From Abiotrophia defectiva ATCC 49176 (lineage in GTDB: Bacteria > Bacillota > Bacilli > Lactobacillales > Aerococcaceae): a DNA stretch of 24,000 nucleotides. Both the position numbers and the translations under genes were made by a program. Position 1 is the stretch's first letter, and the number at the start of each line of letters is the position of its first letter. The stretch lies in the NCBI RefSeq assembly GCF_037041345.1, contig NZ_CP146287.1:358236-382235 (forward strand), given 5' to 3'. Below are positions 4,534-24,000 of the stretch, piece by piece. Under the pieces are notes generated by a model. The model had not been told where the DNA came from. It was given only the letters and a program-made list of their open reading frames with translations, and did no database searches.

Positions 4534-4539
4534 ATGTTT

Positions 4540-7585: not shown

Positions 7586-7597
7586 GAGGCGAGGAAG

Positions 7598-8638: not shown

Positions 8639-8651
8639 AGGAGGTGACGAG

Positions 8652-8957: not shown

Positions 8958-8979
8958 ATAGAATAGAGGAGGAAGTATC

Positions 8980-9318: not shown

Positions 9319-9348
9319 TGAGGACAAAGATTTAAAGGAGTGAGTAAA

Positions 9349-10674: not shown

Positions 10675-10683
10675 GTGATTCTT

Positions 10684-11739: not shown

Positions 11740-11742
11740 TTT

Positions 11743-12924
11743 ATGGATAAATTTGATAAAGCATTCGACAGAAGCGCTATTGGAACACGCAAATGGGATC
11801 CAAGCTTATTAGAAGAGAAGATGCCAGGAGCGAAGGACGTAATTGCGATGGACTTAGCCGATATCGACTTCGAGTGTGCCCCGGCCATTCAACAAGCCCT
11901 TGTGGAGCGCGCTATGCAGGCCGATTATAGCTATACTTATGTGCCCGATAGCTTCTATCAAGCCGTTATCGATTGGAATCGTCGCTACTATGGGCTAGAG
12001 ATAGAGAAGGATTGGATTCGATTAGTGTTTGGGACCGTCTCAGCCCTTCATAATATTGTGCAAGCTCTGACAGAAGAGGGCGAAGCCGTGATGATTCAGA
12101 CACCGGCTTATGCCCCCTTTGCAGAAGCTGTGCAGCATAATGGGCGACGCTTAATCTGTAATGACCTTGAGATTCGAGATAATCGTTACTATATGAACTT
12201 TGAACGCATGGAACGTGACATCCAACAAGAAGGCGTGAAATTATTCATCCTCTGTAATCCACAAAACCCTTCAGGAAGGGTTTGGACCAAGGAGGAATTG
12301 AATCGACTCGCCCAAATCTGCCAACGGTATCAGGTCTGCCTTGTGTCAGATGAGATTCATCGCGATATCGTTTTTAGGAGTCAACACTTCACAAGTCTAT
12401 GGCAGGCCAATGAATCCATTATGCAGAATAGCGTCTTATGCGTCTCTCCCAATAAGGGATTCAACCTTGGGGGGCTTAAAACCTCTTATATTGTAGTGCC
12501 TAATCCTCAAATAAGGGCTCAAATCTATGAACGCCTATCAGCTAACTATGTCACTTCCCCCCATGTTTTTGCGGTACCAGCTATTGTAGCCGCCTATAAC
12601 AAGGAAAGACAGTGGCTAGAGGACATGGTAGCATATATTGAGGAAAATCATCGACTAGTAGAATCTTTCGTCAAGGAGTACATGCCGAGATTCGAAGTAA
12701 TGCCTGCCGAATCATCCTTCCTAGTTTGGGTACGGGTTGGAGATCTACTTAAGACAGAAAGTGAAGTGAAGGCATTCTTCGATGCATGCGCACTTACAAT
12801 GGTGCTAGGGAGTTACTTCGTCCAGAATGGCGAAGGCTATGTCCGCTTGAATATAGGTATGCAGCGTGAGAAAGTATCAGAGGCACTAGATCGAATGTTT
12901 AGGGAATATAAATTGAGAATATAA
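11743..12924 (+). CDS. PLP-dependent C-S lyase / aminotransferase class I-II (MalY/PatB type)
   Basis: The protein is 393 aa. It has the motifs CNPQNPSGRVW and SDEIHRD, and the PLP-lysine region SPNKGFNLGGLK. Confidence 0.75.
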   Translation: MDKFDKAFDRSAIGTRKWDPSLLEEKMPGAKDVIAMDLADIDFECAPAIQQALVERAMQADYSYTYVPDSFYQAVIDWNRRYYGLEIEKDWIRLVFGTVSALHNIVQALTEEGEAVMIQTPAYAPFAEAVQHNGRRLICNDLEIRDNRYYMNFERMERDIQQEGVKLFILCNPQNPSGRVWTKEELNRLAQICQRYQVCLVSDEIHRDIVFRSQHFTSLWQANESIMQNSVLCVSPNKGFNLGGLKTSYIVVPNPQIRAQIYERLSANYVTSPHVFAVPAIVAAYNKERQWLEDMVAYIEENHRLVESFVKEYMPRFEVMPAESSFLVWVRVGDLLKTESEVKAFFDACALTMVLGSYFVQNGEGYVRLNIGMQREKVSEALDRMFREYKLRI

Positions 12925-13006: not shown

Positions 13007-13185
13007 GCACGTCGTGTTGGGAGGCAGCCACGTCGTATTGGAGGTAGCGATGTCTCGATGGACCTCCAACACGACGTGGCTCGGCAAGGAAGCGAGTATT
13101 TTGAGTCAAAAAGGGCGAAAAAGCGTGAGCCACGTCGTATTGGGAGGCAGCCATGTCTCGATGGAGGTCCAACGCGACGTGGCTC
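13007..13185. repeat. Palindromic intergenic repeat element (about 1.7 units), same family as 21101-21469
   Basis: It contains repeated 14-16-nt motifs CCACGTCG(T/C)(G/A)TTGG and their inverse CCAACRCGACGTGG. These form long hairpins, for example AGCCACGTCGTATTGGAGG...CCTCCAACACGACGTGGCT. The shared spacer is TATTTTGAGTCAAAAAGGGCGAAAAAGCG. Confidence 0.8.
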
Positions 13186-13331
13186 AAAATGTAAGCTAGG
13201 TTTAAGCTGAAAAAGGTGAGGGAGAACCCCAAAAGTCGCGAATGGCGTGCTTTTTAGCGCATATAGGTGCAAGAAGGGGTCAAATCACTAAAATAGATAA
13301 ACTATTGTTTAAAAATAATACTGTGCCATTA

Positions 13332-13360: not shown

Positions 13361-13438
13361 GGAGTTAGTGGATTAATGCACAGATGGGCGGTAACGTATG
13401 CAACCCCAAAATTCCAAGAGAATGTTAGGAGTTTAAGT

Positions 13439-14221
13439 ATGAAGTTTGGTTTACGAACACCAAGTTTAAAAAAACGCCTCTCGGCCCGAACAAGTGGCGC
13501 GATGAAACGAAAAATTAAAAGAGCTTTGATTCCCGGCTATGGGCGTAGGGGGAGAGGGTGGCTTACCAACCCTCGGAAAGCACTATATAACAAAATCTAT
13601 CGTAAAACGACAGTTGGCTGCCTTTTACCTTTTCTAATTAGCGCTAGCCTAGTAGTTGGGGGCACGTCATTTATTGCTGCAGCACCATCATCAGTGACCA
13701 TAGAGGAACGCAGTAAACAATGGATAGATGAGCATCTAAAGGATCGAACACTCTCAGAATTTACTCAAGACTTAATTAAGCTTGAAGACGAGAAGCTCAA
13801 GGAAGTAATCTTATTTGGGCACAAAAAAGGAACGCAATTGAAAGATGACTTCGATATCATTGGACGTGATGTAACAATCAAAGGGAAAGTGGTTTACATA
13901 GCGCGTCCACCTCAAAAACAGATGGATGGCAAGTACTTTGGCACCTATCTTGTCTATCTAGGAGATAAGCCAATTGAAGATTTCCAGATTATTGAAGACC
14001 ACAGTAGTACTCGTAAAGATATGTCAAAAGAAGATTTCTTTCTAGGTAAATACCCGGAGGAGAAGATTCAATTGGTACTGGTAGAGATAAAATCTAACCA
14101 GGAGCTTGAGAAGTGGACAAATGTAGAAGGTGTAGGGAATTTGAAGAACTATGTGCTTAAAGTTAAAGTAGATGGAACAGTGGAAGAGTTTTCAGCACTA
14201 ATTAATGAGTTAGAGATATAG
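13439..14221 (+). CDS. Hypothetical membrane-anchored protein: basic N-terminal motif, one TM segment and an approximately 170-aa extracytoplasmic domain
   Basis: I prefer ATG at 13439 (SD AGGAG 7 nt upstream) over the track start at 13376. The N-terminus is SLKKRLSARTSGAMKRKIKRALIPGYGRRGRGWLTNPRKALYNKIYRKTT. The TM segment is VGCLLPFLISASLVVGGTSFIAA. Confidence 0.6.
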   Translation: MKFGLRTPSLKKRLSARTSGAMKRKIKRALIPGYGRRGRGWLTNPRKALYNKIYRKTTVGCLLPFLISASLVVGGTSFIAAAPSSVTIEERSKQWIDEHLKDRTLSEFTQDLIKLEDEKLKEVILFGHKKGTQLKDDFDIIGRDVTIKGKVVYIARPPQKQMDGKYFGTYLVYLGDKPIEDFQIIEDHSSTRKDMSKEDFFLGKYPEEKIQLVLVEIKSNQELEKWTNVEGVGNLKNYVLKVKVDGTVEEFSALINELEI

Positions 14222-14270
14222 ATTTATATGAAATTCAAGGGATTTAAATTACAAAATTAGGGGAAAGCTA

Positions 14271-15365
14271 ATGAGTAAAAAAGTAGTATGTTTAATAGGT
14301 AATGGATTTGATTTAGCTCTGGGTCTCAGAACATCATATACGGATTTTCGAAACTTCATAGAGCTTAAGCATGGGAGTAAAATGTCCGAAAATCTGATTT
14401 ATAAAGCACTCGAAGAGCATACGGGGGGCAATTGGAGTGATTTAGAGAAAAAATTAGGGGAAATATTCAAGAAATCTACATGGGAAGGTATTTTTAAAAA
14501 CTCTGATTCTGTTTTAGATGGAGAGGAGTTACAGTTTTCAATTAATGAAGCAAGGGAAAATCTTATTGATGACTTAATAGAGCATCTCAAACAAGAAGAA
14601 AAAATACTAGGAAAAATTCAAATTGATGACGAAGTAAAAAATAACATGATCGAAGGTATACAACGCCTGTTTTCTCCGACGATTGAAAGAGATCAAGATA
14701 TTTTAAAAAATCATCAGAGCTTGTATGGAGAAGATATATATTTTTATACTATTAGCTTCAACTATACAGATTCTTTCTCTTATCTGTTTAATAAAATCGA
14801 GAGTAGTGATTATAGCATTGGGAGAAGTTTTTCTCGATACGCTACTCTCTATCCGCATGGGACTAGTGAAATAGGGACTACAATTGGAGTGAATGATGAG
14901 ACTCAGTTATTAGGTTATAAAGAAGGGGAAAGTGTTTTGGAGGCGGATACCGCTAAATTTATGATTAAACCTAGAAATAAAGAGCACGGGCAAGATAATC
15001 AATATGAGGATGCTCTACAACGAATCTCCATAGCTGATATCATCATAATATATGGGATGTCTTGCGGTGAGACGGACAAAGATTGGTGGGAGGCGATTGA
15101 AAAGAGACTTTTAGGGTATAAAAACTCAATCGCGATAGTTTTTAGCTATGAAACACTTCGGAGAACCCATAATAGCCAGGTAGAGAGAGTCCGGAATAGG
15201 GTCAGAAGTAAACTATGTAGTAGCTCAGAAAACATGGCTACTATAGGAAATCGAATTATTGTTGAATGTAGTAAGGACTTATTTTCCCATATTAAGAGTA
15301 AAACGGAGGAAGTACGTAAGCAAGTAGACGAAGTGCAAGTAACGAAAGAAGAGGATACTATTTGA
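14271..15365 (+). CDS. AbiH-like abortive-infection family protein
   Basis: The N-terminus VVCLIGNGFDLALGLRTSYTDFRNF and the later IIIIYGMSCGETDKDWWEAI match my memory of the AbiH (PF14253) pattern (GNGFDL..GL.TSY.DF and GhS....D..Y). The gene is AT-rich. It starts 50 nt after the upstream gene with no terminator between them. Confidence 0.65.
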   Translation: MSKKVVCLIGNGFDLALGLRTSYTDFRNFIELKHGSKMSENLIYKALEEHTGGNWSDLEKKLGEIFKKSTWEGIFKNSDSVLDGEELQFSINEARENLIDDLIEHLKQEEKILGKIQIDDEVKNNMIEGIQRLFSPTIERDQDILKNHQSLYGEDIYFYTISFNYTDSFSYLFNKIESSDYSIGRSFSRYATLYPHGTSEIGTTIGVNDETQLLGYKEGESVLEADTAKFMIKPRNKEHGQDNQYEDALQRISIADIIIIYGMSCGETDKDWWEAIEKRLLGYKNSIAIVFSYETLRRTHNSQVERVRNRVRSKLCSSSENMATIGNRIIVECSKDLFSHIKSKTEEVRKQVDEVQVTKEEDTI

Positions 15366-15470
15366 AACTTCGTCTTTAGATGTTTTATCGATGGTAAATA
15401 AGCTGCTCACAAAAGTTGAATTGTTTGTTCGTGTTGGGGAAGTTTATTTTGTGAACATAAGTTAAGATTC

Positions 15471-15510
15471 GCTCTGCCACAAACTCTTCAATAAACACGA
15501 CAAAAAATAG
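15471..15510 (+). pseudogene. 5'-truncated remnant of the holin-like toxin gene
   Basis: Only the last 13 codons plus the stop remain recognisable (..LCHKLFNKHDKK*). An in-frame TAA lies two codons upstream of the homology boundary. No start codon or SD is present. Confidence 0.55.
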
Positions 15511-15611
15511 CCGTCCCCACTTTGACTCGCGGGATGGCTATTTTTAGTCATCTTCGCATAACCTTCTTATATAGCTCTGAACGGGAGTCGAGTTCGCCCT
15601 CGACTCCTTTT
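15502..15611 (-). ncRNA. Putative orphan antisense sRNA (paralog of 4424-4533)
   Basis: On the minus strand, -35 TTGACT (15642-15647) is conserved and the -10 is weakened to AATAAT (15618-15623). The terminator hairpin lies at 15509-15539, with an A-run at 15502-15507. Confidence 0.4.
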
Positions 15612-15675
15612 GTGCTTATTATTTCGTAAGGGTTTGGGGGAAGTCAAAACTATAATGTTCAGGATAAAAATACTT

Positions 15676-15705
15676 TTGTTGTTAGTTCATTAAATCGGAT
15701 ATAAT
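15676..15705 (+). promoter_or_regulatory. Candidate promoter for the nuclease-like gene
   Basis: -35 TTGTTG is at 15676-15681 and -10 TATAAT is at 15700-15705, with an 18-nt spacer. Confidence 0.4.
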
Positions 15706-15814
15706 ATGGGTAGTATCGAATTTGTAAATCATCTCATTCAATTACGGGTGAGTTTGGTTAGAAAATGTTATAAGATATGTATAAAGAAATCTGTAATATC
15801 AATGGAGGTTGGGT

Positions 15815-16675
15815 ATGGAAAAATATACATCAGATAAAGCATTAGAGGCTATTGATTTAAGTCGAGATGAGTTGGAATGTTTGATTAGGGCGGGAAAAGA
15901 TTTAAGCGTGGAAAGTGTAAGTAACGAAGGAGAACTTGATCTTGATTTGGTCTTCATAGAGGACGGTGGCTATTATAAGGTAGGGAACTATTGGGAGCAA
16001 TATTCAACGGACGATAAGGTTTTAATAAAGCCTATACTCCTAAATGAAGAAATAGATGGTATGAAAAAGAATAGTGGCTGGATAGCAAATTTAAGAAATA
16101 GTAAAGAGGGGAAGGAATCAAAGGATGAAATTGATAATATTGACATAAATTACTTGCGTAATTCACAGAGGGCAATTGGTTACCCTCGTAGAGTTATTAA
16201 CAAAAATGCCAGTAGTATGAATGAATTCCTTCATCGTGGCCACTTGATGGCAAATGAAATAATTAGAGACTATATTAATAAGAGAATACAAGATCAACGG
16301 TGTCATATGTTTCGTTCTAAAAAGCACAGACATAATATATACGCTCAATTTAAACAATCTAATTGTTATTATAGTGATTGTTTTACTCGAAAAGGGCAAA
16401 GTTATTTTGAAAAGAACATCATAGACTATTTAAAATATAAAGAGGGCTATGTCAATTACGAAGTTCGTGCCTTATTTAAGAGTCCGGGCGATAAGGTTCC
16501 ACGAGCTAATCTATTATGTGCGAGATTCTACGATTCTTGTGGGCTGCTCGATGAGCAAGAGACATTTTGTGTTGTAATTCCAAATATGGGAAGCCTAGGG
16601 AGAGACTATAGCTCAATAGCAAGTTATAAATTTTCATATGAAGATGGGTTAATGGAACCAAGTAAAGGGAATTAA
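15815..16675 (+). CDS. DNA/RNA non-specific endonuclease-like protein (beta-beta-alpha-Me, EndA/NucA-like C-terminal domain) with an unknown acidic N-terminal domain and no signal peptide
   Basis: The start is ATG at 15815 (SD GGAGG 6 nt upstream). The C-terminal half carries HRGHLMANE (compare the DRGHL catalytic motif), NIYAQFKQSN (compare N..PQ...N) and GQSYFEKNIIDYL..VNYEVRALFKSPGDKVPRANLL. This last stretch resembles the EndA-type YYEN...YKVTPIY..ELVPR layout. The first 125 aa or so are acidic and have no hydrophobic leader. Confidence 0.6.
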   Translation: MEKYTSDKALEAIDLSRDELECLIRAGKDLSVESVSNEGELDLDLVFIEDGGYYKVGNYWEQYSTDDKVLIKPILLNEEIDGMKKNSGWIANLRNSKEGKESKDEIDNIDINYLRNSQRAIGYPRRVINKNASSMNEFLHRGHLMANEIIRDYINKRIQDQRCHMFRSKKHRHNIYAQFKQSNCYYSDCFTRKGQSYFEKNIIDYLKYKEGYVNYEVRALFKSPGDKVPRANLLCARFYDSCGLLDEQETFCVVIPNMGSLGRDYSSIASYKFSYEDGLMEPSKGN

Positions 16676-16741
16676 CCATAAAAAGGTAAAGAGTAATTGA
16701 AAAAATAAGACATCAATGAGTAGGTTGTCCAATAAAGTCAC

Positions 16742-16770
16742 CCCGTGCTTATAAAGCACGGGTTATTTGT
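16742..16770 (+). terminator. Intrinsic terminator after the nuclease-like gene
   Basis: CCCGTGCT-tataa-AGCACGGG forms the stem, followed by TTATTTGT. Confidence 0.7.
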
Positions 16771-16888
16771 ATGGATTTAAAAATCAAATAACCACAAGAA
16801 TTCTAAACTCTAGCGCAAGAATGAGCAAGATATTTTGAGGCTGCTAAGTTATACTCAGGATAGATTACCAAATTTTGGAGGGATATTA

Positions 16889-17152
16889 ATGGGATTTTTG
16901 GATAATGCAAAGAATGAAAGTAGCTATTCAGTAGCGTCTGGTAGAGATTTGAATTATGTGGTTTTACAGGTAACCCTGAAGGAAAAATTTATTGGGACGG
17001 GTTCTGGAAATCTAGCGGAGCTAGAGGAAGTCATTAACAGACAAGCTGCAAAAGGATATAGACTTCATACTATTGCGACAAGTAATGGTGGCAGCAAAGG
17101 CTTTATGGGCGGAGATAGAATCCAGGCTACACTAGTTTTTGAGTCGCTTTAG
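16889..17152 (+). CDS. Small DUF4177-like protein
   Basis: The start is ATG at 16889 (SD GGAGGG), giving 87 aa. The pattern YVVLQV...GNLAELEEVINRQAAKGYRLHTIA...ATLVFE resembles DUF4177 (WEYKVV...LN.LG.EGWELVSV...VFKR). Confidence 0.5.
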   Translation: MGFLDNAKNESSYSVASGRDLNYVVLQVTLKEKFIGTGSGNLAELEEVINRQAAKGYRLHTIATSNGGSKGFMGGDRIQATLVFESL

Positions 17153-17285
17153 CGTTTACTAGAATGAATAAGGTAAAGGGATGAAGGTATGCCAGAAAAT
17201 AACCTAGATATACTGAGCATGCGACATGTCAAGCATGATAAATGATTGTATCATGCGCGCAGGGGACGTGTTAAGTATCCTATAG

Positions 17286-17316
17286 AAGAGGGCCGTAAAA
17301 GGCTCTTTTTATTTTT
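17286..17316 (+). terminator. Intrinsic terminator in the ORF-free gap
   Basis: AAGAGGGCC-gtaaaa-GGCTCTTTT forms the stem, followed by a long T-run (TTTTTATTTTT). Confidence 0.5.
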
Positions 17317-17712
17317 GGAATAAGACACTACCATTTGAGGGACATGGCGCAATCATATTCGATCAAATCAGGCCAACAGAATTGACAGTTTCTGTCTCAA
17401 TCGTTCGCTTGTCTACCTTTAAAACTCTCTCGTCTCATACTGTAATGTGCACACGCTCATTTGATGATTCAAATACCAACAGCCCATCACTAAGCCATTC
17501 CTTAGACCATAATATTGCTCAAAATGAATTTTGTTGCAAATTATGAAATCATTTAGTGAAGGGCTTTCTTTCTAGAATTTCTGGGCGTATAATATAACTA
17601 TAGTAAGTTAAGGCGGATTCTCTCTCTCGTTTGGCTCCATGGTTAAGCAGTTAGGTAGAAGTCGTCTTTTTGCTATATCAAGATAAATTCTATAAGAAAG
17701 GAGAGTTACTTT

Positions 17713-18018
17713 ATGAGAGAGATGCAGCAAATTCAGATCAGCTACCAATACGATCATGAGCGTCTCTATGAGGCACTTAAGCGGAGAGGCATGACCGAGC
17801 GTGCGTTGGCAGAGAAAATCTATTGTTCGCCCGCTACGGTCTCTCGCATCTTCAATGGTTGTGGCCGTCTAAGCATTGAGACCATCATTATGGTCTGTCT
17901 AGCTATGAAACTAACAGTTGAAGAGCAGCTTGAGATTTTCTATTTCTCTTGTATGGGTATCTTGCACCATTTAGGGGTGAGTATGGGCGATACCCAAGAC
18001 ACTAAATTCGACATATGA
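17713..18018 (+). CDS. XRE-family helix-turn-helix regulator
   Basis: The protein is 101 aa. The HTH is MTERALAEKIYCSPATVSRIFNG. The SD is AAGGAGAG. This is the first gene of the GC-rich module. Confidence 0.7.
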   Translation: MREMQQIQISYQYDHERLYEALKRRGMTERALAEKIYCSPATVSRIFNGCGRLSIETIIMVCLAMKLTVEEQLEIFYFSCMGILHHLGVSMGDTQDTKFDI

Positions 18019-18185
18019 CATCAGGAGGCACAGTTTATAAAGTTGTTATATTGGCTCAATATAATTACTCGAGTTGTGGTTAACCACAACTCAGAAAAGA
18101 ATCGTGACTGGACAAGAAAGTTATACATAAGAATAGATAATGTTGTTGAATAGGTTTTTATGACTATTTGGAAGGAAGAAAAACC

Positions 18186-19349
18186 ATGAAATTCGATGAT
18201 TTAGAAAATTTAAATTTAGATAGCATCAGGGAGCAGATTTTAGCCTATGCGGTTCAGCTTACTCAGTCCTATTGGGAGATTGGTCGGCGGTTGCATTATG
18301 CCAAGCAGTCTTTGTTGTCAGAAGATGGATTTCTACCATGGTTAGAGACGCTTTATATCGATTATCCCGAGGCTAATCGCATGATGTATGTAGCCAAGAA
18401 TTTACCTAAGATGAAGTGCTACGAGCATCTAGGCTTATCGCTACTTTATCTGATCGCAACTATCCCCGAGGAACATCGTCAGAAGATTTATACTTTACCT
18501 TCAGGCAAATGTAAGTACCTGCATCAAATGTCTCAGTTAGAACTTCGGACCGTTAAGCGGCTGTTGAAAGCGGGACAGTTGGAGTCTTGCTTCCAAGGAG
18601 ATAGTCAGTTACAAGTTGACTGTCAAGAGGTGAAGAAGGAGACACAGGATGCCGTCTCGCCTGAAGCAAGTCAGGCTAGAGCACCGCAAGCTCCTGCTAC
18701 CAATCAAGCTACTACGCAACAGGTTCCAACCAGCCCTCAAGCTGACGGGCTTCAGCCTGACGCCCAATCGGACGATGCTATACACCAATCTAGACAGCCC
18801 CAGACTAAGTTGCTTACCCCAAGTCAAGATCTCAAGTCCAACCCCCTAGCTCCCAAGCTAGCCGAGGCGGAGGCGACTAACCAGCGCCTAAGAGAATCCC
18901 TTAAGCAGGCTAATGCCAAGTATCAGGAAGACCTACAATCTATCGAGGAGCGCTACCGTTATCTCAAGCGATTCCGGGAGGGTTTATCGCATTTCGCTAA
19001 TCGGTCCACGACCTTCATTCCGGATTTGGAGGGTCTTAATCGCATCATCGCCTTCAGTCATGAGATTGACCACTTGCTAGTTAAGCTGGCGCCTATGCGC
19101 TATATCGATGACTTTAAGGCGATTCAGAATCAGGTCATGGTCGACCATTACCTCAAGCAGATTGACCGAGTAGATGACTGGGTCCAATCCATGCGTGCTA
19201 GCATCCATCAAGCCCAAGCAGTAGGCCGGCGAGATGTGACATCTGAGGGGGCTGATGGCCAAGCTCGGCCTCAACAAGCAAGCTATGGCCCTAGCGAACC
19301 TAAGACTAACTTCTCTAACTCAACACAAGAAAATCAAGCCGTTGCATAA
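18186..19349 (+). CDS. DUF3102-like protein with a Q/P/A-rich low-complexity linker and a C-terminal coiled-coil region
   Basis: I prefer ATG at 18186. The N-terminus SYWEIGRRLHYAKQSLLSEDGFLPWLETL..YPEANRMMYVAKN fits the DUF3102 pattern (IG..L..AK..L.HG.W..WL). The low-complexity stretch is QARAPQAPATNQATTQQVPTSPQADGLQPDAQ. Confidence 0.55.
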   Translation: MKFDDLENLNLDSIREQILAYAVQLTQSYWEIGRRLHYAKQSLLSEDGFLPWLETLYIDYPEANRMMYVAKNLPKMKCYEHLGLSLLYLIATIPEEHRQKIYTLPSGKCKYLHQMSQLELRTVKRLLKAGQLESCFQGDSQLQVDCQEVKKETQDAVSPEASQARAPQAPATNQATTQQVPTSPQADGLQPDAQSDDAIHQSRQPQTKLLTPSQDLKSNPLAPKLAEAEATNQRLRESLKQANAKYQEDLQSIEERYRYLKRFREGLSHFANRSTTFIPDLEGLNRIIAFSHEIDHLLVKLAPMRYIDDFKAIQNQVMVDHYLKQIDRVDDWVQSMRASIHQAQAVGRRDVTSEGADGQARPQQASYGPSEPKTNFSNSTQENQAVA

Positions 19350-19366
19350 TATAAGGAGGAACTACC

Positions 19367-19810
19367 ATGGAAACAGCAACACCAAGTACATTGAACAATC
19401 AAATGACTAGCCTAGAAGCCCAAGTCCAAGCTCAACACCAGTTGCTGGGGCAGATTAACAGCCATCTCCAAGTTTTAACGACTCTCTTAGAGCACCAACC
19501 CCTGTCACCTGAGGCCACTTATGCCCTAACGCGTTTGCGCCGTCATGAGATCCACCAACGCCTAGGGGACAAGGACCGCTTACTAACGGCTCGACGTCCG
19601 GAACTGGTGCGTCTGGTCTATCGGACGGCACGCCTGGCCTTCCTCAGTCATTTTAGCTTATCCAGCTATGGGCATCTACCACAAGAGCGATATGAAGCTG
19701 CTGTCAGCTTCTGGAAGGAATGGAAGGTCCCGGTCGACTTGCAGGCTAAGCTAGACCAAGCCTATAAGGACTTGGCTCAAGACCGGCCTCAACTCCATGC
19801 AGTTGCCTAA
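19367..19810 (+). CDS. Hypothetical phage-type protein, possibly with an ORF6C-like C-terminal domain
   Basis: The protein is 147 aa. The SD is AAGGAGGA. The C-terminal segment LVRLVYRTARLAFLSHFSLSSYGHLPQERYEAAVSFWKEW resembles ORF6C domains of phage antirepressor-type proteins. Confidence 0.45.
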   Translation: METATPSTLNNQMTSLEAQVQAQHQLLGQINSHLQVLTTLLEHQPLSPEATYALTRLRRHEIHQRLGDKDRLLTARRPELVRLVYRTARLAFLSHFSLSSYGHLPQERYEAAVSFWKEWKVPVDLQAKLDQAYKDLAQDRPQLHAVA

Positions 19811-19833
19811 CTAGGGATAAGGAGGGAACAGCT

Positions 19834-20367
19834 ATGACTTCCGACCATTATCCCTTGGACCAGGAGCAACTCCTGGCCCGCTACCGACTTTTGTTACATC
19901 ATGTCTTGCACCAATACCATCTCTTGGCTGAGGATCAAGACTATGACGATTACTACAATGAACTTTACCTACACCTTGTCCGCCTAGCCCGCGACTTCGA
20001 TGGGGACGCGCTCAGCGAGTCTGACCGCTTCCGATTCGTGGGCTATGCTCAGCGGGGCCTGAGTTGGCATCTGGGTCAACTCCTAGCCAAACGATCACGT
20101 CAGGCTCAAGGCCTGATTGGCAATCAGAAGGTCCTGCATTTTGCCGAACAGGCTGGCGCCAGTCGCCCGCCTATGGACGACTTGGTCAACTCGCTGCTGC
20201 TGTCGCAAGTCTTGTCGCCAACCGATTATCATTTCCTCTGTGTGGCCCAGAACGAGCAACTCTCGCTTGGGGCCAAATGCCAAGAGCTGGGCATATGTAA
20301 GAATACCTACTATGCCCGCCTAAAGCGCCTACGCCAGACCCTGCAAGCAAGCGACTGGTCGGCTTAA
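19834..20367 (+). CDS. Sigma-70-like / ArpU-type transcriptional regulator (candidate late-gene activator)
   Basis: The protein is 177 aa. The region-2-like stretch is YYNELYLHLVRLARDF. The C-terminal region-4-type HTH is LSLGAKCQELGICKNTYYARLKRLRQTL. The SD is AAGGAGGG. Confidence 0.6.
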   Translation: MTSDHYPLDQEQLLARYRLLLHHVLHQYHLLAEDQDYDDYYNELYLHLVRLARDFDGDALSESDRFRFVGYAQRGLSWHLGQLLAKRSRQAQGLIGNQKVLHFAEQAGASRPPMDDLVNSLLLSQVLSPTDYHFLCVAQNEQLSLGAKCQELGICKNTYYARLKRLRQTLQASDWSA

Positions 20368-20456
20368 GTGCCTACGCCAGACCTTGAAAGCTAGCGATTG
20401 GTCGGCTTGAGTGCCTGCGTCAGACACTGCAAGCCAGTGACTGGTCAGCTTGAGTG
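20328..20456 (+). repeat. Three tandem 43-nt units, plus a partial fourth, overlapping the sigma-like gene's 3' end
   Basis: The units lie at 20328-20370, 20371-20413 and 20414-20456. Each contains a 39-nt segment reading LRQTL(Q/K)ASDWSA plus a stop codon, followed by GTGC. Confidence 0.9.
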
Positions 20457-20478
20457 CCTTGCTCAGCTCTTTTTCTCC

Positions 20479-20506
20479 AGCTCCCGCAGAGGGGGCTTTT
20501 TATTTT
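20479..20506 (+). terminator. Intrinsic terminator after the repeat stack
   Basis: AGCTCCC-gcaga-GGGGGCT forms a stem with one G-U pair, followed by TTTTTATTTT. Confidence 0.65.
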
Positions 20507-20608
20507 GCAGAAAAATAAATTTTTAGGGCTGACTTGGGCATGAGGAGGGGGCTTAATTCTTTTTAAGTATGTAACGTTACAAGAAACTAGTTCAAGGAGT
20601 GATTCATT

Positions 20609-20806
20609 ATGGCACGATCATATGTTAAGGGTATCCTCAAGTTCAAGTCCCTAGATGAGAACAAGAAGGCGGAGAATGTTTCCATGCCCAACCTAGTAGA
20701 GAACGCTAGCGCCGAGGACATCAAGTCCGTGCGCGACGCTATTGCTACCCTGGTTGAGCATCCCATCACCGAGACCCAGGTGACCGAGGTCTTCAGCGTC
20801 AACTAG
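20609..20806 (+). CDS. DUF1659-like small protein
   Basis: The protein is 65 aa. The SD is AAGGAG. The pattern LKFKSLDENKK...NLVENASAEDIKSVRDAIATL resembles DUF1659. It is paired with a DUF2922-like gene, as is usual for this family. Confidence 0.5.
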   Translation: MARSYVKGILKFKSLDENKKAENVSMPNLVENASAEDIKSVRDAIATLVEHPITETQVTEVFSVN

Positions 20807-20848
20807 TCGGCTTGTTGAGTAGAGCAGTGAATTAAGGAGGAACCCATC

Positions 20849-21088
20849 ATGGCTAACAAAACCATTAAGACTTTTGAGATGAATTTCGCGACCGCAGACG
20901 GCAAGTCTAAGAAGATTAGCCTGCGCCACGCCAAGGCAGACATCACCAAGGACCAGGCCAAAGCCGCCATGGCCACCATCGTAGGCAAGGACATCTTCAC
21001 CAAGGACGCCGTCGACCAGTTCGCCAAGGAGAAGACCGCCAACTACGTCACCCGCACCGTAGAGGAAGTCTACAAGGCTGAGGCTTAG
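20849..21088 (+). CDS. DUF2922-like small protein
   Basis: The protein is 79 aa. The SD is AAGGAGGA. The pattern KTFEMNFATADGKSKKISLRHAKADITKDQAKAAM resembles DUF2922. Confidence 0.5.
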   Translation: MANKTIKTFEMNFATADGKSKKISLRHAKADITKDQAKAAMATIVGKDIFTKDAVDQFAKEKTANYVTRTVEEVYKAEA

Positions 21089-21100
21089 GGTGAGTTGGGC

Positions 21101-21469
21101 GCCCCGCCATGTCGTGTTGGAAGAGCGCCATGTCGCATTGGGCCTCCAACGCGACGTGGCTAAGGCGGCACGCCCTATTTTAGCTCAGAAAATGGCGAAA
21201 AGCGCCCGCCACGTCGTGTTGGGCGTGAGCCACGTCGCTTTGGGCTTCCAACGCGACATGGCTAAGGCGGTACGCCCTCTTTTAACTCAGAAAATGGCGA
21301 AAAAGCGCCCGCCACGTCGTGTTGGGAGTGAGCCACGTCGCATTGGGGCTCCAATACGACATGGCTGCGGCAGGAAACTCCCTTTTAGCCTGAAAAATGG
21401 CGAAAGAGCACCCGCCACGTCGTGTTGGGCGTGAGCCACGTCGCATTGGGCTTCCAACGCGACATGGCT
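21101..21469. repeat. Tandem palindromic repeat element, about 3.6 units of 102-103 nt
   Basis: The motif CCAYGTCGTGTTGG starts at 21107, 21209, 21312 and 21415. Each unit has two direct motifs (CCACGTCGTGTTGG, AGCCACGTCGCATTGG) and one inverted motif (CCAACGCGACATGGCT), plus the spacer TTTTAGCTCAGAAAATGGCGAAAAGCG. Confidence 0.85.
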
Positions 21470-21494
21470 CAGCCAAAGACACCTAGTATCTTAC

Positions 21495-21611
21495 GAGCCA
21501 GTCCATAGATAGGGGGAACGGTGGACTGGCTCGGTCGCTAGGTGGCGAAAACCGGGCATTTTACTGGATTTGCGACAAGCTAGTCCATGGATAGCTAGAA
21601 CAATGGACTGG
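21495..21611 (+). promoter_or_regulatory. Two related stem-loops upstream of the lysis genes (function unknown)
   Basis: Hairpin 1 is GAGCCAGTCCA-N16-TGGACTGGCTC (21495-21532). Hairpin 2 is CTAGTCCAT-N14-ATGGACTGG (21580-21611). Both share AGTCCAT.GATAG....AAC..TGGACT. Confidence 0.4.
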
Positions 21612-21659
21612 CGCCAGCCACTCAGCCACCCCATCATTATTCAGAAAGGAGCCTTCATC

Positions 21660-22019
21660 ATGACATGGCTACAGCTTACGACGCTGGCGTCCGGCCTAGT
21701 CGCGGGCGCGACCCTCCTGGGCAAGTTGGTGCGCCTGATTGCGGCGATCCAGACGCTGATTCTTCGAATCGAGCGCATGCAGACGGACTTAGCTAGCACG
21801 CAGAGTAACCTGCAAGGCGCGCAAGCCAGTCTTGCGACAACTCAGGATAACTTACATGCCACGCAAAATGACCTAGCCACCACCCAAGCCAAGCTCCAGG
21901 TCACTCAGACCGACCTAGGTGCCACCCAGACTCAAGTCACAACAGTTGCACAGGACCTGTCCCGCGTCCGCCAACGTCTGGGACGTCTGGAAGACAAGCG
22001 GGTCCACAGTCTGGCTTGA
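21660..22019 (+). CDS. N-terminal TM protein with eight perfect heptads (L-x-x-T/A-Q-x-x); lysis-module accessory protein in the XhlA-like position
   Basis: I prefer ATG at 21660 (SD AAAGGAG 8 nt upstream). The TM segment is WLQLTTLASGLVAGATLLGKLV. The heptads LASTQSN LQGAQAS LATTQDN LHATQND LATTQAK LQVTQTD LGATQTQ VTTVAQD span 21789-21956. Confidence 0.55.
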   Translation: MTWLQLTTLASGLVAGATLLGKLVRLIAAIQTLILRIERMQTDLASTQSNLQGAQASLATTQDNLHATQNDLATTQAKLQVTQTDLGATQTQVTTVAQDLSRVRQRLGRLEDKRVHSLA

Positions 22020-22067
22020 CGCAGCCAGGCACTTCTATCTCTAAGCAAAGAAAGCGAGGCAGTCATT

Positions 22068-22301
22068 ATGCATCTTCCCACTAGTCGCAAGGCCTATACG
22101 ACGATTCAATGGATGGCACTGATCCTGATTCCGGCGCTAGCGGTCCTAGTCCAAGGTCTAGCCGAACTCTATGCCTGGCCCGACCCCTGGCCTCGTCGCC
22201 TGGTTGGCACCCTCAATCTAGTCGGCGTCTTCCTAGGGGCGCTACTTCAAGGCTGGCATTATGGCCGACGCAAGACTAGGAGCAAGGCAAAGTCCGCTTA
22301 G
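22068..22301 (+). CDS. Holin (two TM segments and a basic C-terminal tail)
   Basis: The protein is 77 aa. The TM segments are WMALILIPALAVLVQGLA and LVGTLNLVGVFLGALLQ. The tail is GRRKTRSKAKSA. The gene lies immediately upstream of the endolysin. Confidence 0.6.
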   Translation: MHLPTSRKAYTTIQWMALILIPALAVLVQGLAELYAWPDPWPRRLVGTLNLVGVFLGALLQGWHYGRRKTRSKAKSA

Positions 22302-22377
22302 GCTCTCCGCTCACGCCCTTAGCCACATAGCCCGCACTCCAAACCCATCTCATCCCATCCAAAGGAGGAACCCACTC

Positions 22378-23058
22378 ATGAAGCCACAAATTCAACAACT
22401 CCTATCCAAGGCCCAAGCCTACCTAGGCGTCCAAGGCGGAAGTCCCACCCATCAGGGCCTCGTTGATGCCTATAACGCTGTCCAACCCCTGCCGGTCGGC
22501 TACGCAGTTACCTACAGCGACGACTGGTGCGATGTCTTCGTTACCGTCATGGGAGACCAGGCCGGCATCGCTCATCTGATTGGGCGCGAATGCGGCGTGC
22601 CTCGTCATCTGACCTGGTGCCAAGAGCAGGGCATCTGGCTAGGCCATGTCTGGCCTCAAGCTGGCGATCTGATTTTCTTCGATTTTGGGGGTGGGCCTGC
22701 ATCTCACATCGGCATTGTGGAAAGTGTGGACGGCGACAGCGAAACCGTCAATACTATTGAGGGTAACTGGCTCAACCAGGTTGTCCGCCGTCATTATGCT
22801 AGTGACGACTGGCGCATCCTAGGTTATGCCCGGCCTCAATATGATGCGAGGGCTGGGAGTGTAGCCACTGGCAGTGAAGCTGGGGGAGCTAATCATCCGA
22901 ATGGCTGTGTCGATGCAGCTAGCGACCTAGATGAAGTGGTCTGGTCAGTTATCCGAGGTGACTGGGGCAATGGACAGGAACGAATCGACCGGCTAACTGA
23001 TGCGGGTTATGATGCGCAAGTTCTGCAGGAATTGGTGAATGAGAAATTGGCAAGTTAG
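22378..23058 (+). CDS. Endolysin: N-terminal CHAP domain plus a C-terminal CW_7 (Cpl-7-like) cell-wall-binding motif
   Basis: The start is ATG at 22378 (SD AAAGGAGGA). The CHAP catalytic Cys context is YSDDWCDVFV and the His context is ASHIGIVESV...NTIEGN. The C-terminal VIRGDWGNGQERIDRLTDAGYDAQVLQELVN matches the CW_7 repeat consensus. Confidence 0.8.
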   Translation: MKPQIQQLLSKAQAYLGVQGGSPTHQGLVDAYNAVQPLPVGYAVTYSDDWCDVFVTVMGDQAGIAHLIGRECGVPRHLTWCQEQGIWLGHVWPQAGDLIFFDFGGGPASHIGIVESVDGDSETVNTIEGNWLNQVVRRHYASDDWRILGYARPQYDARAGSVATGSEAGGANHPNGCVDAASDLDEVVWSVIRGDWGNGQERIDRLTDAGYDAQVLQELVNEKLAS

Positions 23059-23069
23059 AGGATAAGAGA

Positions 23070-23096
23070 AAAAGCGCCGGGAGGGCGCTTTTTTTG
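23070..23096 (+). terminator. Intrinsic terminator after the endolysin
   Basis: AGCGCC-gggag-GGCGCT forms the stem, followed by TTTTTTTG. Confidence 0.8.
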
Positions 23097-23104
23097 TTAT
23101 AATA

Positions 23105-23133
23105 TTGAGAATTTTAGGCATTTATGGTATAAT
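23105..23133 (+). promoter_or_regulatory. Near-consensus promoter in the AT-rich CRISPR leader
   Basis: -35 TTGAGA is at 23105-23110. After a 17-nt spacer comes the extended -10 TGGTATAAT at 23125-23133. This is about 90 nt upstream of the first repeat. Confidence 0.6.
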
Positions 23134-23223
23134 AAAGAGTAGTAATTAAGGGAGTATCTGATACTAGAAAACCCTTGAAATCTATATATTGTATATCGTG
23201 TCTAGGGTGACACAAGATATAGA

Positions 23224-23473
23224 GTTCAGATACCTTAATCCCCGAGAGGGGACGGAAACTACCGCCGTTCAGTTCATCATCAATCGGCGTTAAGTCGTTC
23301 AGATACCTTAATCCCCGAGAGGGGACGGAAATATGTATAATCTTTGGTTTTCTTATTGAATTGGTCTGTTCAGATACCTCATTCCCCGCGAGGGGACGGA
23401 AACTTCTAAAGCGTACTGCGATTGTGGTTTTTTTAACATTTAGATACCTCATTCCCCGCAAGGGGTCAAAAAG
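23224..23473 (+). CRISPR. Mini-CRISPR array with 4 repeats (36 nt) and 3 spacers (37, 35 and 34 nt); the repeat is type III-A-like
   Basis: The repeats start at 23224, 23297, 23368 and 23438. R1 is GTTCAGATACCTTAATCCCCGAGAGGGGACGGAAAC. R2 is identical except the last base is T. R3 has 3 substitutions. R4 is degenerate (ATTTAGATACCTCATTCCCCGCAAGGGGTCAAAAAG), which puts the trailer on the right and the leader on the left. The 3' half CCCCGAGAGGGGACGGAAAC closely matches the S. thermophilus CRISPR2 (III-A) repeat as I remember it. Confidence 0.85.
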
Positions 23474-23608
23474 GCACAACCATAACTTAGTACTAACCCT
23501 AGGTTGGCCTTATATAAACAAAACAACGCTAGCGTCAACTAGCGTTGTTTTTATAGTATTTTATTCGTATAATATGACTGTATCCTACCATCAAAAGGAG
23601 CCCTCACC

Positions 23609-24000
23609 GTGTCCAATTATTTTCAATCGCAACTTACTAAATCTCTCCAGCATGGCTTCATTCATCGCCATGACTATCCGGATGGCAACTATGCCCCGCA
23701 GATTCTCATTAATAAGCCGGCCAAGGGGGCCCATGTTCTCACCGCTATTCAAGATGAGCTTCTTAAGTGTGATCGTTTCTACTTCTCTGTGGCCTTTATC
23801 TCCAAGGCTGGGATTGCCATGCTTAAGACTCAACTCTCGGATCTGGCTGATCGCGGGGTAGAAGGCTACATCCTGATTTCGCCCTATCTAGGTTTCAATG
23901 ATCCGGATGCTATGCGGGAGCTGCTCAAGCTATCCAATGTTCAGGTGCGGCTGACCCGTGAGGAGCTCAATATGCATGCCAAGTGCTATCTCTTCCAACA
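23609..24000 (+). CDS. N-terminal PLD-like (HKD) nuclease domain of a probable DUF3427-type helicase; the 3' end lies outside the window
   Basis: This ORF is not in the supplied track because it runs off the edge. The start is GTG at 23609 (SD AAAGGAG 8 nt upstream). My translation is MSNYFQSQLTKSLQHGFIHRHD...YAPQILINKP...RFYFSVAFISKAGIAMLKTQLSDLADRGVEGYILISPYLGFNDP...NMHAKCYLFQ. It contains the HxK motif (HAK). Confidence 0.65.
   Translation, partial: MSNYFQSQLTKSLQHGFIHRHDYPDGNYAPQILINKPAKGAHVLTAIQDELLKCDRFYFSVAFISKAGIAMLKTQLSDLADRGVEGYILISPYLGFNDPDAMRELLKLSNVQVRLTREELNMHAKCYLFQ

What the first reader, a model, noticed from the sequence alone, without database searches (positions are those of the whole stretch)
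23100..23480. Orphan type III-A-like mini-CRISPR array directly after a phage-type lysis cassette
**What the sequence shows**
- A 4-repeat, 3-spacer array sits about 165 nt after the endolysin stop codon. In Firmicute prophages this is the classic moron or attR-proximal position.
- It has its own near-consensus promoter (TTGAGA-17-TGGTATAAT).
- No cas gene lies within the approximately 6 kb upstream. The approximately 0.4 kb of coding sequence downstream is a PLD-nuclease N-terminus, not a cas gene.
- The repeat ends in ACGGAAAC. As I recall, this is the 8-nt crRNA 5' handle used by S. thermophilus Csm (III-A).
- Repeat degeneration increases toward the right-hand end: R1 and R2 are near-identical, R3 has 3 changes, and R4 is degenerate.

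**Interpretation (inference)**
- A cas-less mini-array at the edge of a phage-like module could be a phage-borne or hitch-hiking array. It would exploit a host type III system for inter-element competition.
- Alternatively it could be the decayed remnant of a lost III-A locus.
Basis: partly seen in the sequence, partly recalled or inferred. Interest (0 to 1): 0.72.

Follow-up and report, generated by a model that had tools for sequence, protein, structure and literature searches.

The report
Stranded type III-A CRISPR array
This is a real but ordinary CRISPR array: the outermost of three arrays of the type III-A immune locus of the oral bacterium Abiotrophia, left without its cas genes in this strain, apparently by swapping of neighbouring defence cassettes, and not carried by a phage.

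Summary
Four 36-nt repeats and three spacers lie at 23224-23473, behind a near-consensus promoter, and no cas gene lies in the 23 kb upstream. The repeat ends in ACGGAAAC, the S. thermophilus III-A crRNA tag.

Related Abiotrophia contigs explain the array. Many strains carry cas1-cas2-(array A)-cas6-cas10-csm2-6-(array B)-[5.7-kb HTH...holin-endolysin module]-(array C)-SauUSI-like PLD-helicase. The window's array is array C: it has the same leader, the same oldest spacer and the same degenerate last repeat.

The lysis module is present in every strain sampled, with or without arrays, so the array does not travel with it. The repeat is absent from IMG/VR viral contigs.

In the window an AbiH cassette sits where the csm operon and array B would be. 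The window matches an array-less strain without a mismatch up to position 22505, inside the endolysin gene, and then diverges by roughly 7-11%. That marks a recombination crossover, or possibly an assembly chimera.

Spacer 1 matches phage contigs 37/37, antisense to a phage gene, just as spacers of csm-bearing strains do.

Verdict: this is a stranded, probably inert, remnant array of a known kind. Trans use by cas genes elsewhere in the genome cannot be excluded. Interest is low.

The parts
23062..23100 (+). Terminator hairpin of the endolysin gene. It marks the right edge of the conserved lysis module and the point where strains start to differ.
   Evidence: 17-nt inverted repeat, 88% complementary, followed by a T run. 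Homology with the array-less loci L006 and L010 ends at 23098-23105.
23101..23223 (+). CRISPR leader with promoter: -35 TTGAGA at 23105-23110, TG-extended -10 TATAAT at 23128-23133, and the leader-repeat junction motif ACAAGATATAG.
   Evidence: The promoter scan matches 11 of 12 positions. The leader aligns with the array C leaders of other strains and with the array B leader that follows csm6; the promoter region and junction motif are conserved.
23224..23259 (+). Repeat 1, GTTCAGATACCTTAATCCCCGAGAGGGGACGGAAAC
   Evidence: It folds into a 5-bp hairpin and leaves the 3' tail ACGGAAAC unpaired.
23260..23296 (+). Spacer 1 (37 nt), newest. It matches phage contigs.
   Evidence: 37/37 match in IMG/VR UViG_3300008486_000085 (L024 2909-2945) and in ODKN01000485.1 (L027 2053-2089); 36/37 in L025 and L026. 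The target ORF is on the opposite strand, so the crRNA would pair with its mRNA.
23297..23332 (+). Repeat 2. Its last base is changed from C to T, giving the tag ACGGAAAT.
23333..23367 (+). Spacer 2 (35 nt), target unknown.
   Evidence: No match in IMG/VR, in JGI metagenomes, in the phage collection or in any fetched locus.
23368..23403 (+). Repeat 3, with 3 changes relative to repeat 1.
23404..23437 (+). Spacer 3, the trailer-end anchor spacer shared by all copies of array C.
   Evidence: 97% identical in L001-L005, L008, L018 and L020. A diverged version (85% over 34 nt) is in L021-L023; L019 gave only a 21-nt match of borderline E-value.
23438..23473 (+). Degenerate terminal repeat.
   Evidence: 74% identical to R1 over 35 nt. 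The same degenerate repeat ends array C in the other strains.
23474..23592 (+). Trailer with a terminator hairpin at 23520-23551; the end of the array unit.
   Evidence: Terminator scan. Homology with L010, which lacks the array, resumes at 23593.
23609..24000 (+). 5' part of the gene for a SauUSI-like type IV restriction enzyme (PLD nuclease, helicase, DUF3427); 993 aa in relatives.
   Evidence: The PADLOC model mREase_IV matches with E = 2.9e-252.
17436..23100 (+). Conserved prophage-remnant lysis module: HTH 17713-18018, 393-aa protein, ORF6C-domain protein, 177-aa protein, DUF1659, DUF2922, holin 22068-22301 and CHAP/CW_7 endolysin 22378-23058. In relatives it separates csm6 and array B from array C.
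   Evidence: Pfam and PHROGs matches. The same block with the same left edge (17436-17442) is found in L004, L008, L010, L018, L020 and L022. The gene lists show it in the other loci.
22400..22506 (.). Crossover zone inside the endolysin gene. To its left the window is identical to an array-less strain; to its right it belongs to a different lineage.
   Evidence: Window 1743-22505 has no mismatch to contig ERZ27319033 k141_35221 (L013/L006). From 22506 to 23081 there are 67 differing positions, counting a 15-nt indel as 15.
13376..17435 (+). AbiH-containing cassette occupying the place where csm-bearing strains have cas1...csm6 and arrays A and B.
   Evidence: AbiH by Pfam and PADLOC. Compare the gene order of L018-L023 and L028-L029.

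Best explanation
**What it is**
- The repeats are a bona fide chromosomal CRISPR array of the type III-A (Csm) system of the Abiotrophia defectiva group.
- It is 'array C', the most distal of three arrays of that locus. The full order in relatives is cas1-cas2-(array A, inverted)-cas6-cas10-csm2-csm3-csm4-csm5-csm6-(array B)-(5.7-kb prophage-remnant lysis module)-(array C)-SauUSI-like restriction gene.

**How it works in csm-bearing strains (inferred from established III-A biology)**
- The leader promoter makes a pre-crRNA.
- Cas6 cuts each repeat 8 nt from its 3' end, leaving the ACGGAAAC tag.
- Csm complexes use the spacers to recognise complementary phage transcripts.

**What happened in this strain**
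- The segment with cas1...csm6 and arrays A and B is missing from its usual place. An AbiH cassette sits there instead.
- The array and the helicase gene are joined to that backbone at a crossover inside the endolysin gene.
- The conserved lysis module acts as a homology anchor on either side of which defence cassettes are exchanged.
- The array is therefore a stranded immune memory. It is probably still transcribed, but without Cas6/Csm it is not processed or used, and it is shrinking and decaying.

**Shown versus inferred**
- Shown: the anatomy, the homology with relatives, the absence of cas genes in 23 kb, the crossover and the phage match.
- Inferred: that no csm operon exists elsewhere in this genome, and hence that the array is inert.
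For: **Identity as array C**
- L001, L003, L004, L008 and L018-L023 have an array at the same site. It has the same leader, the same trailer-end spacer and the same degenerate last repeat, and the same 993-aa helicase gene follows it.
- Leader-end spacers differ between strains and partly overlap in order. L008 carries spacers 36-43 and 8; L018 carries 54-59, 36, 39-43 and 8. This is the pattern expected of polarised acquisition.

**Link to a III-A system**
- The same repeat flanks a complete operon in L018-L023 and L028-L032.
- NCBIfam equivalog models name Cas1, Cas2, Cas10/Csm1, Csm3, Csm4, Csm5 and Csm6 there, and a domain model names Csm2. Cas6 scores 58.1 bits, just under its 58.65-bit cut-off, and also has a Pfam Cas6 hit.
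- Cas10 keeps its HD motif (residue 15) and GGDD motif (residue 569).
- The tag is identical to the S. thermophilus III-A tag.

**Not phage-borne**
- The module occurs without any array in L006, L007, L009, L010 and L011.
- In L010 the array unit alone is replaced by another cassette.
- The repeat is absent from IMG/VR. The region 17500-24000 has no match in 50,697 phage records.

**Loss of cas genes by cassette exchange**
- No cas gene lies in the window.
- The window has no mismatch to the array-less L013/L006 contig over 1743-22505, then abrupt divergence.
- A second case exists: L008 has a 10-repeat array C sharing 7 spacers with csm-bearing L018, but no cas gene within 10 kb upstream.
- Wherever the sequence downstream of csm6 is visible, the csm operon sits at this locus, next to the module.

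**A real immune memory**
- Spacer 1 matches four phage-like contigs at 37/37 or 36/37. The matches lie next to terminase genes, antisense to a gene (phrog_5057 in L024).
- Only 2 of the 8 bases flanking the protospacer are identical to the tag (reading).
- Four spacers of csm-bearing strains hit the same contig, L027, in the same antisense orientation.
Against: - Only 24 kb of the genome is visible, so a csm operon elsewhere cannot be excluded.
- The promoter, the leader-repeat junction and R1 are intact, and spacer 1 still matches extant phages perfectly. That fits either recent stranding or continued use.
- Small size is not diagnostic. The csm-bearing locus L019 has only 5 repeats in array C, and trailer-end repeats are degenerate in csm-bearing strains too.
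- The abrupt switch from identity to roughly 7-11% divergence inside a conserved gene is also what a chimeric join of two co-occurring strains looks like in a metagenome assembly. The origin of the window is unknown.
Confidence: 0.72

Rival explanations
1. The array is a 'distant' rather than an orphan array. The same genome encodes a compatible Csm/Cas6 set elsewhere, which processes this transcript in trans, so the array is a working part of the strain's immunity.
For: - The promoter, leader and first repeat are intact.
- Spacer 1 matches circulating phage contigs perfectly and in the correct antisense orientation.
- In complete genomes 23% of arrays are distant from cas genes, and 75% of those match the subtype of a cas cluster present in trans (PMC7145637).
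Against: - In all 37 contigs read for two Csm6 alleles, every place shown has the operon in the same gene order. Wherever the downstream sequence is visible, the operon sits next to the lysis module, and no second location was seen.
- The backbone to which the window is identical (L006/L013 type) has neither a csm operon nor an array at this locus.
- The R2 tag base is mutated, and the array has only three spacers.
Confidence: 0.15
2. One reading: the mini-array belongs to the phage-like module. It would be a phage- or satellite-borne array that hijacks a host type III system to fight competing elements.
For: - The array directly follows a holin-endolysin pair.
- It is short.
- Spacer 1 targets a phage.
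Against: - The module has no integrase, packaging or structural genes.
- It sits at the same chromosomal site, with a constant left edge, in every strain sampled.
- It occurs without the array (L006, L007, L009-L011), and the array unit is replaced independently of the module in L010.
- The window's module is identical to that of an array-less strain up to position 22505.
- The repeat is absent from IMG/VR, and the module has no match in the phage collection.
- Targeting of phages is equally expected of a host array, and spacers of csm-bearing strains hit the same phage.
Confidence: 0.03
3. The cas-less context is an assembly artefact. The contig joins an array-less strain (left of 22505) to a different strain (right of it) through the shared endolysin gene. 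In reality the array may belong to a csm-bearing strain.
For: - More than 20.7 kb without a mismatch to one metagenomic contig is followed by sudden divergence of roughly 7-11% inside a conserved gene.
- All comparison loci come from metagenome assemblies in which several Abiotrophia strains may co-occur.
- No contig on record encodes the window's hybrid endolysin.
Against: - Natural recombination gives the same pattern, and this site clearly exchanges cassettes between strains: five different right-hand cassettes and at least four different left-hand ones were seen.
- An independent scaffold, L008 (97.9 kb), also has array C with no csm operon upstream.
- Even if the join were chimeric, the array's identity as array C would be unchanged.
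Confidence: 0.1

Closest known systems
Type III-A (Csm) CRISPR-Cas loci of Streptococcus thermophilus and Staphylococcus epidermidis
   Same: - 36-nt repeat with a short G/C hairpin.
- 8-nt 3' tag ACGGAAAC, identical to the S. thermophilus tag (PMC9297841).
- Relatives carry cas1, cas2, cas6, cas10 and csm2-6 in the canonical set.
- Spacers are antisense to phage genes, as transcript-dependent type III targeting requires.
   Different: - The Abiotrophia locus has three arrays. One is inverted between cas2 and cas6, and one lies about 7 kb beyond csm6 behind a conserved lysis module.
- In the window the whole cas operon is missing.
- Csm6 is only 27% identical to the nearest named homologue, from an Enterococcus sp..
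Distant and orphan CRISPR arrays (Bernheim et al. 2019, PMC7145637)
   Same: - An array with no cas gene within 20 kb upstream.
- It is short, as orphan arrays tend to be (8 repeats on average, against 24 inside CRISPR-Cas loci).
- Its repeat can be typed to a subtype known in the species.
   Different: - Here the history can be read directly. The array's normal partner operon, the site of the exchange and an isogenic array-less strain are all visible.
- Whether it is 'orphan' or 'distant' in that paper's sense cannot be decided from 24 kb.
Virus- or prophage-borne mini-CRISPR arrays. This comparison rests on my own knowledge: mini-arrays have been described in archaeal viruses and in some prophages, where they are thought to act in competition between viruses.
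   Same: - Small size.
- No adjacent cas genes.
- Position next to phage-type lysis genes.
- A spacer against a phage.
   Different: - The carrier is not a mobile phage genome but a fixed chromosomal remnant.
- The array does not co-vary with the carrier.
- The repeat is absent from viral contigs.
- Phages and prophages are nearly devoid of CRISPR arrays (PMC7145637).
Defence islands and hotspots with exchangeable cassettes
   Same: - The window carries a type IIG restriction-modification enzyme, AbiH, the array and a SauUSI-like type IV restriction gene.
- Other strains carry GmrSD with MutH and a methylase, FRG with AbiGi and AbiGii, a DUF2971 protein, or the csm operon at the same two junctions.
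   Different: The anchor between the two variable sites is a conserved holin-endolysin module rather than a tRNA gene, an integrase or a core housekeeping gene.

Membership tests
Type III-A (Csm) CRISPR array | Regularly spaced repeats of about 36 nt with a short hairpin and an 8-nt 3' tag typical of III-A | tested here: met
   Four repeats spaced 70-73 nt apart, against a chance expectation of 0.00. The repeat forms a hairpin. The tag ACGGAAAC equals the S. thermophilus III-A tag. Rfam CRISPR-DR models give only sub-threshold matches.
Type III-A (Csm) CRISPR array | The same repeat family lies physically next to cas10/csm genes in related genomes | tested here: met
   L004, L018-L023 and L028-L032 carry cas1, cas2, cas6, cas10/csm1 and csm2-6, with this repeat in arrays on both sides.
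Type III-A (Csm) CRISPR array | cas10/csm/cas6 genes in cis (a complete CRISPR-Cas locus) | tested here: not met
   No Cas family is found in any ORF of 80 aa or more in the window. No cas gene lies within 10 kb downstream of the helicase gene in the relative L004.
Type III-A (Csm) CRISPR array | Polarised spacer turnover: variable leader end, conserved trailer end | tested here: met
   Spacer 3 is shared by the array C copies, while spacers 1 and 2 are unique to the window. Ordered partial overlap is seen between L008 and L018, and among L021, L022 and L023.
Type III-A (Csm) CRISPR array | Spacers match mobile elements, with the crRNA complementary to the target transcript and no tag/anti-tag pairing | tested here: met
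   Met for spacer 1: 37/37 matches, antisense to a phage gene, with 2 of 8 flank bases identical to the tag. All five significant hits on L027 are antisense to genes. The targets of spacers 2 and 3 are unknown.
Type III-A (Csm) CRISPR array | Production of mature tagged crRNAs and interference | not testable with these tools
   This needs RNA sequencing and a phage challenge of the source strain.
Orphan CRISPR array (no cognate cas genes in the genome) | No cas cluster within 20 kb | tested here: inconclusive
   Met for the 23 kb upstream. Only 0.5 kb downstream is in the window, and relatives show no cas gene in the next 10 kb.
Orphan CRISPR array (no cognate cas genes in the genome) | No cognate cas cluster anywhere in the genome | not testable with these tools
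   The genome is not available. Indirect evidence: wherever its downstream flank is visible, the csm operon in this taxon sits at this locus.
Phage- or prophage-borne mini-array | The array lies inside a mobile viral genome that has integrase, packaging or structural genes and variable insertion sites | tested here: not met
   The module has only a regulator, proteins of unknown function, a holin and a lysin. It occupies the same site with the same left edge in all strains. It has no match in the phage collection.
Phage- or prophage-borne mini-array | The array co-occurs with the element, and its repeat is found in viral sequences | tested here: not met
   The module occurs without the array in L006, L007 and L009-L011. 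The array unit alone is replaced in L010. The repeat gives 0 hits in IMG/VR.

The most novel reading that the evidence does not exclude
The conserved holin-endolysin module, flanked in csm-bearing strains by two paralogous leader-array-trailer units, may not be a passive prophage scar. It may be a maintained recombination anchor that lets Abiotrophia strains exchange CRISPR memory (array C) and effector cassettes (csm, AbiH, GmrSD and others) independently by homologous recombination. On this reading, cas-less arrays such as this one persist as transferable memory that can be re-armed when a csm cassette is re-acquired on the other side of the module. A bolder version is that the lysis genes themselves serve the defence island as a suicide output.
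Probability: 0.1. Interest if true: 0.5.

Novelty: new member of a known kind. Interest (0 to 1): 0.22.

Why it matters
It matters little beyond housekeeping. The finding assigns an apparently enigmatic 'phage-borne mini-array' to an ordinary type III-A locus, and it shows how an array becomes separated from its cas genes.

Three points are modestly useful:
- It documents a III-A system with three arrays in Abiotrophia, an oral commensal and endocarditis agent. My two literature searches found no description of its CRISPR biology.
- It gives a clean natural example of an array stranded by cassette exchange. The window has no mismatch to an array-less strain over more than 20 kb up to a crossover inside a lysin gene.
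- It links spacers to uncultivated phage contigs, which are thereby assigned to Abiotrophia as their likely host.

Tried and rejected
- **Endolysin look-ups.** Exact look-ups of the window's endolysin, with either start codon, found no contig. No second copy of the window's exact junction is therefore available.
- **Phage collection.** The region 17500-24000 gave no match. A query of about 110 spacer clusters gave one hit, from another strain's spacer to Streptococcus phage Dp-1 at 33/35, and nothing for the window's spacers.
- **Spacers 2 and 3.** IMG/VR scans found nothing, and the JGI metagenome scan for spacer 2 found nothing. Their targets remain unknown.
- **Self-targeting.** No spacer matches any non-array part of the Abiotrophia loci fetched by then (L001-L023). 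This rejects the idea that the arrays target the adjacent lysis module.
- **Split-array idea.** I considered that the module had inserted into a single ancestral array and split it. I rejected this because arrays B and C each have their own homologous leader, promoter and degenerate end. They are paralogous complete units.
- **Rfam.** No match at gathering threshold. CRISPR-DR families appear only as weak sub-threshold matches.
- **Csm6 look-up.** I went through a homologue search instead.
- **Module as type III accessory effector.** I considered this possibility. No Pfam family at all, and hence no CARF or SAVED domain, matches the 393-, 177- and 149-aa module proteins, and the module is equally present in strains without csm. 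I kept it only as the low-probability novel case.
Full report
**1.
Reading 22700-24000 and the repeat finder give four direct repeats at 23224, 23297, 23368 and 23438, spaced 73, 71 and 70 nt apart. The unit is 36 nt, GTTCAGATACCTTAATCCCCGAGAGGGGACGGAAAC. R2 differs only in its last base (C to T), R3 has 3 changes, and R4 is degenerate with 10 of 36 positions different. With up to 3 mismatches the repeat occurs three times in the window, against 0.00 expected in shuffles.

The repeat RNA folds into a 5-bp hairpin that leaves the ACGGAAAC tail single-stranded. A promoter, TTGAGA-17-TATAAT with a TG extension, lies at 23105-23133 and matches 11 of 12 positions. Terminator hairpins bracket the unit at 23062-23100 and 23520-23551.

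**2. The window is a defence-rich chromosomal stretch without cas genes.**
Pfam, PADLOC and PHROGs give the following gene content:
- a type IIG helicase-methylase restriction enzyme (1-4119);
- a PTS/peptidase/aminotransferase operon (5738-12924);
- an AbiH cassette (13376-17152);
- a G+C-rich module (17436-23100): Cro/CI-type HTH, a 393-aa protein of unknown function (phrog_1733), an ORF6C (anti-repressor C-terminal) protein, a 177-aa protein, DUF1659, DUF2922, a Dp-1-type holin and a CHAP/CW_7 endolysin;
- after the array, the start of a PLD-helicase-DUF3427 protein that matches the PADLOC type IV restriction model with E = 2.9e-252 (SauUSI-like).

The endolysin most likely starts at 22378, not 22261. 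No Cas family was found anywhere in the window.

**3. Relatives identify the organism and the locus.**
A scan of species-representative genomes for the repeat found one contig, from an Abiotrophia defectiva MAG (L001). It has the same leader and ten repeats. It shares the last spacer, the degenerate final repeat and the helicase gene.

The helicase cluster has 558 members, some named 'uncultured Abiotrophia sp.'. Looking up members and the window's own proteins gave 30 further loci.

The decisive ones are L004, L018-L023 and L028-L032. Their order is cas1-cas2-(array A, on the opposite strand)-cas6-cas10-csm2-csm3-csm4-csm5-csm6-(array B)-the same HTH...holin-endolysin module-(array C)-helicase. 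NCBIfam equivalog models name Cas1, Cas2, Cas10/Csm1, Csm3, Csm4, Csm5 and Csm6, and a domain model names Csm2. Cas6 scores just under its cut-off and also has a Pfam hit. Cas10 retains its HD and GGDD motifs.

The leaders of arrays B and C are homologous. They share the promoter and the ACAAGATATAG leader-repeat junction, and both arrays end in a degenerate repeat followed by a similar terminator. They are paralogous complete units, not halves of an array split by an insertion.

The window's array is therefore array C of an ordinary III-A locus. Its cas operon normally lies about 7 kb upstream, on the far side of the lysis module.

**4. The array does not belong to the phage-like module.**
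- The module is present, with a constant left edge (window 17436-17442), in every Abiotrophia contig that covers the site.
- Its flanks vary. On the left: the AbiH cassette, a DUF2971 gene, a PTS operon followed by a 278-aa gene, or the csm operon.
- On the right: array C with the helicase gene; GmrSD with MutH and a methylase; FRG with AbiGi and AbiGii; or 316-aa and 188-aa genes with AbiH and then the helicase gene.
- L006, L007 and L009-L011 have the module and no repeat at all.
- In L010 exactly window 23106-23592 (leader, array and trailer) is replaced by another cassette, between the same terminator and the same helicase gene.
- The module has no integrase, packaging or structural genes.
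- Neither the module nor the repeat is found in the phage collection or in IMG/VR.
- Published surveys find phages and prophages almost devoid of CRISPR arrays, whereas 23% of chromosomal arrays are distant from cas genes and 12% are orphans, the orphans being shorter (PMC7145637).

**5. How the array lost its cas genes.**
Sliding comparison and megablast show that window 1743-22505 has no mismatch to contig ERZ27319033 k141_35221 (L013/L006). That contig has the AbiH left flank, GmrSD on the right, and no array.

Differences begin at 22506, inside the endolysin gene. There are 67 differing positions up to 23081, counting a 15-nt indel as 15. Homology ends at 23098.

The right-hand part (the 3' end of the lysin gene, the array and the helicase gene) is 94-98% identical to array-bearing strains but identical to none of them.

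This is the signature of a homologous-recombination crossover in the lysin gene. It put, or kept, array C and the helicase gene on a backbone that has no csm operon at the locus. Which of the two states is ancestral cannot be told.

A second, independent case is L008. Its 10-repeat array C shares seven spacers in order with csm-bearing L018, but there is no cas gene in the 10 kb upstream.

One caveat applies. The same pattern would arise from a chimeric assembly of two co-occurring strains, and I cannot test this without reads.

**6. The spacers are normal anti-phage memory.**
- Spacer 3 is the anchor spacer shared by the array C copies. Spacers 1 and 2 are unique to the window.
- Spacer 1 matches 37/37 in an IMG/VR contig (L024) and in a JGI contig (L027), and 36/37 in two more viral contigs.
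- The match lies in a 249/250-aa gene (phrog_5057 in L024) next to terminase genes. The gene is on the opposite strand, so the crRNA would be complementary to its mRNA.
- The eight bases beside the protospacer share only 2 of 8 positions with the tag, so targeting would not be blocked as 'self' (reading).
- Four spacers from arrays A and B of csm-bearing strains hit the same L027 contig, all in the antisense orientation.
- Spacers 2 and 3 have no match in any collection tried. No spacer matches the lysis module or any other non-array part of the Abiotrophia loci fetched by then, L001-L023.

**7. Mechanism and verdict.**
In csm-bearing strains the leader promoter drives a pre-crRNA. Cas6 trims it to tagged crRNAs, and Csm complexes detect phage transcripts. 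This is established type III-A biology, not tested here.

In the window strain the promoter and R1 are intact, so transcription is likely. Without Cas6 and Csm the RNA would remain an unprocessed transcript of about 400 nt.

The array's small size and the mutated R2 tag base fit relaxed selection, but they are not proof. The csm-bearing locus L019 also has a 5-repeat array C.

My probabilities are:
- about 0.7 that the array is a stranded, inactive remnant;
- about 0.15 that a csm operon elsewhere uses it in trans;
- about 0.1 that the cas-less context is an assembly artefact;
- about 0.03 for the phage-borne reading.

**8. Novelty.**
The thing itself is a new member of a well-known kind: a III-A array, and a distant or orphan array. 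I found no description of the Abiotrophia locus in the searchable literature. Its three arrays and its conserved lysis module between csm6 and array C make it a mildly unusual layout, but nothing suggests a new mechanism.

Noticed in passing
window 21103-21469, 13008-13186 and 21488-21612; L004 6798-6958 and 13065-13345; L001 3913-4117: A family of G+C-rich interspersed and tandem repeats of about 80-103 nt lies in intergenic DNA, including inside the lysis module and downstream of the helicase gene. It resembles the REP/BOX-type repeats of other Firmicutes. The 114-aa ORF at 21090-21434 is probably an artefact of these repeats.
   Followed up: partly
window 17436-23100 and its two junctions (about 17436 and about 23100): The 5.7-kb lysis module (HTH to holin-endolysin) is conserved at 78-100% nucleotide identity per 300-nt segment in every Abiotrophia contig sampled. 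Both flanks act as hotspots that carry different defence cassettes in different strains: csm, AbiH, a DUF2971 gene, GmrSD with MutH and a methylase, FRG with AbiGi and AbiGii, or the SauUSI-like gene. Holin and lysin are intact everywhere, which suggests that the module is maintained rather than decaying.
   Followed up: partly
L018 2201-3382, L019 2059-3382, L020 2826-3373 (minus strand): Strains with the csm operon have a third array between cas2 and cas6. It is oriented opposite to the cas genes and has many degenerate repeats (3-11 mismatches). Its leader-proximal spacer nevertheless matches the same phage contig, L027.
   Followed up: partly
L004 2031-3066 and 8838-9864 (arrays B and C): Arrays B and C are direct repeats flanking the module, so recombination between them should delete it. 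Yet every csm-bearing contig that covers the site keeps the module.
   Followed up: no
window 4393-4570 and 15471-15648: A 178-nt sequence is present twice in the window at 88% identity, in two intergenic regions of the island.
   Followed up: no
window 1-4119: A large ORF combines ResIII/SNF2 helicase and Eco57I-type methylase domains (PADLOC model: type IIG restriction-modification enzyme; 1455 aa in relatives). It is one more defence gene in the same 24 kb.
   Followed up: partly
L024, L025, L026 (IMG/VR) and L027 (ODKN01000485.1): These uncultivated phage-like contigs, with about 46% G+C, are hit by spacers from several Abiotrophia strains. They can therefore be assigned to Abiotrophia as their probable host. 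A spacer of another strain matches Streptococcus phage Dp-1 at 33/35.
   Followed up: partly
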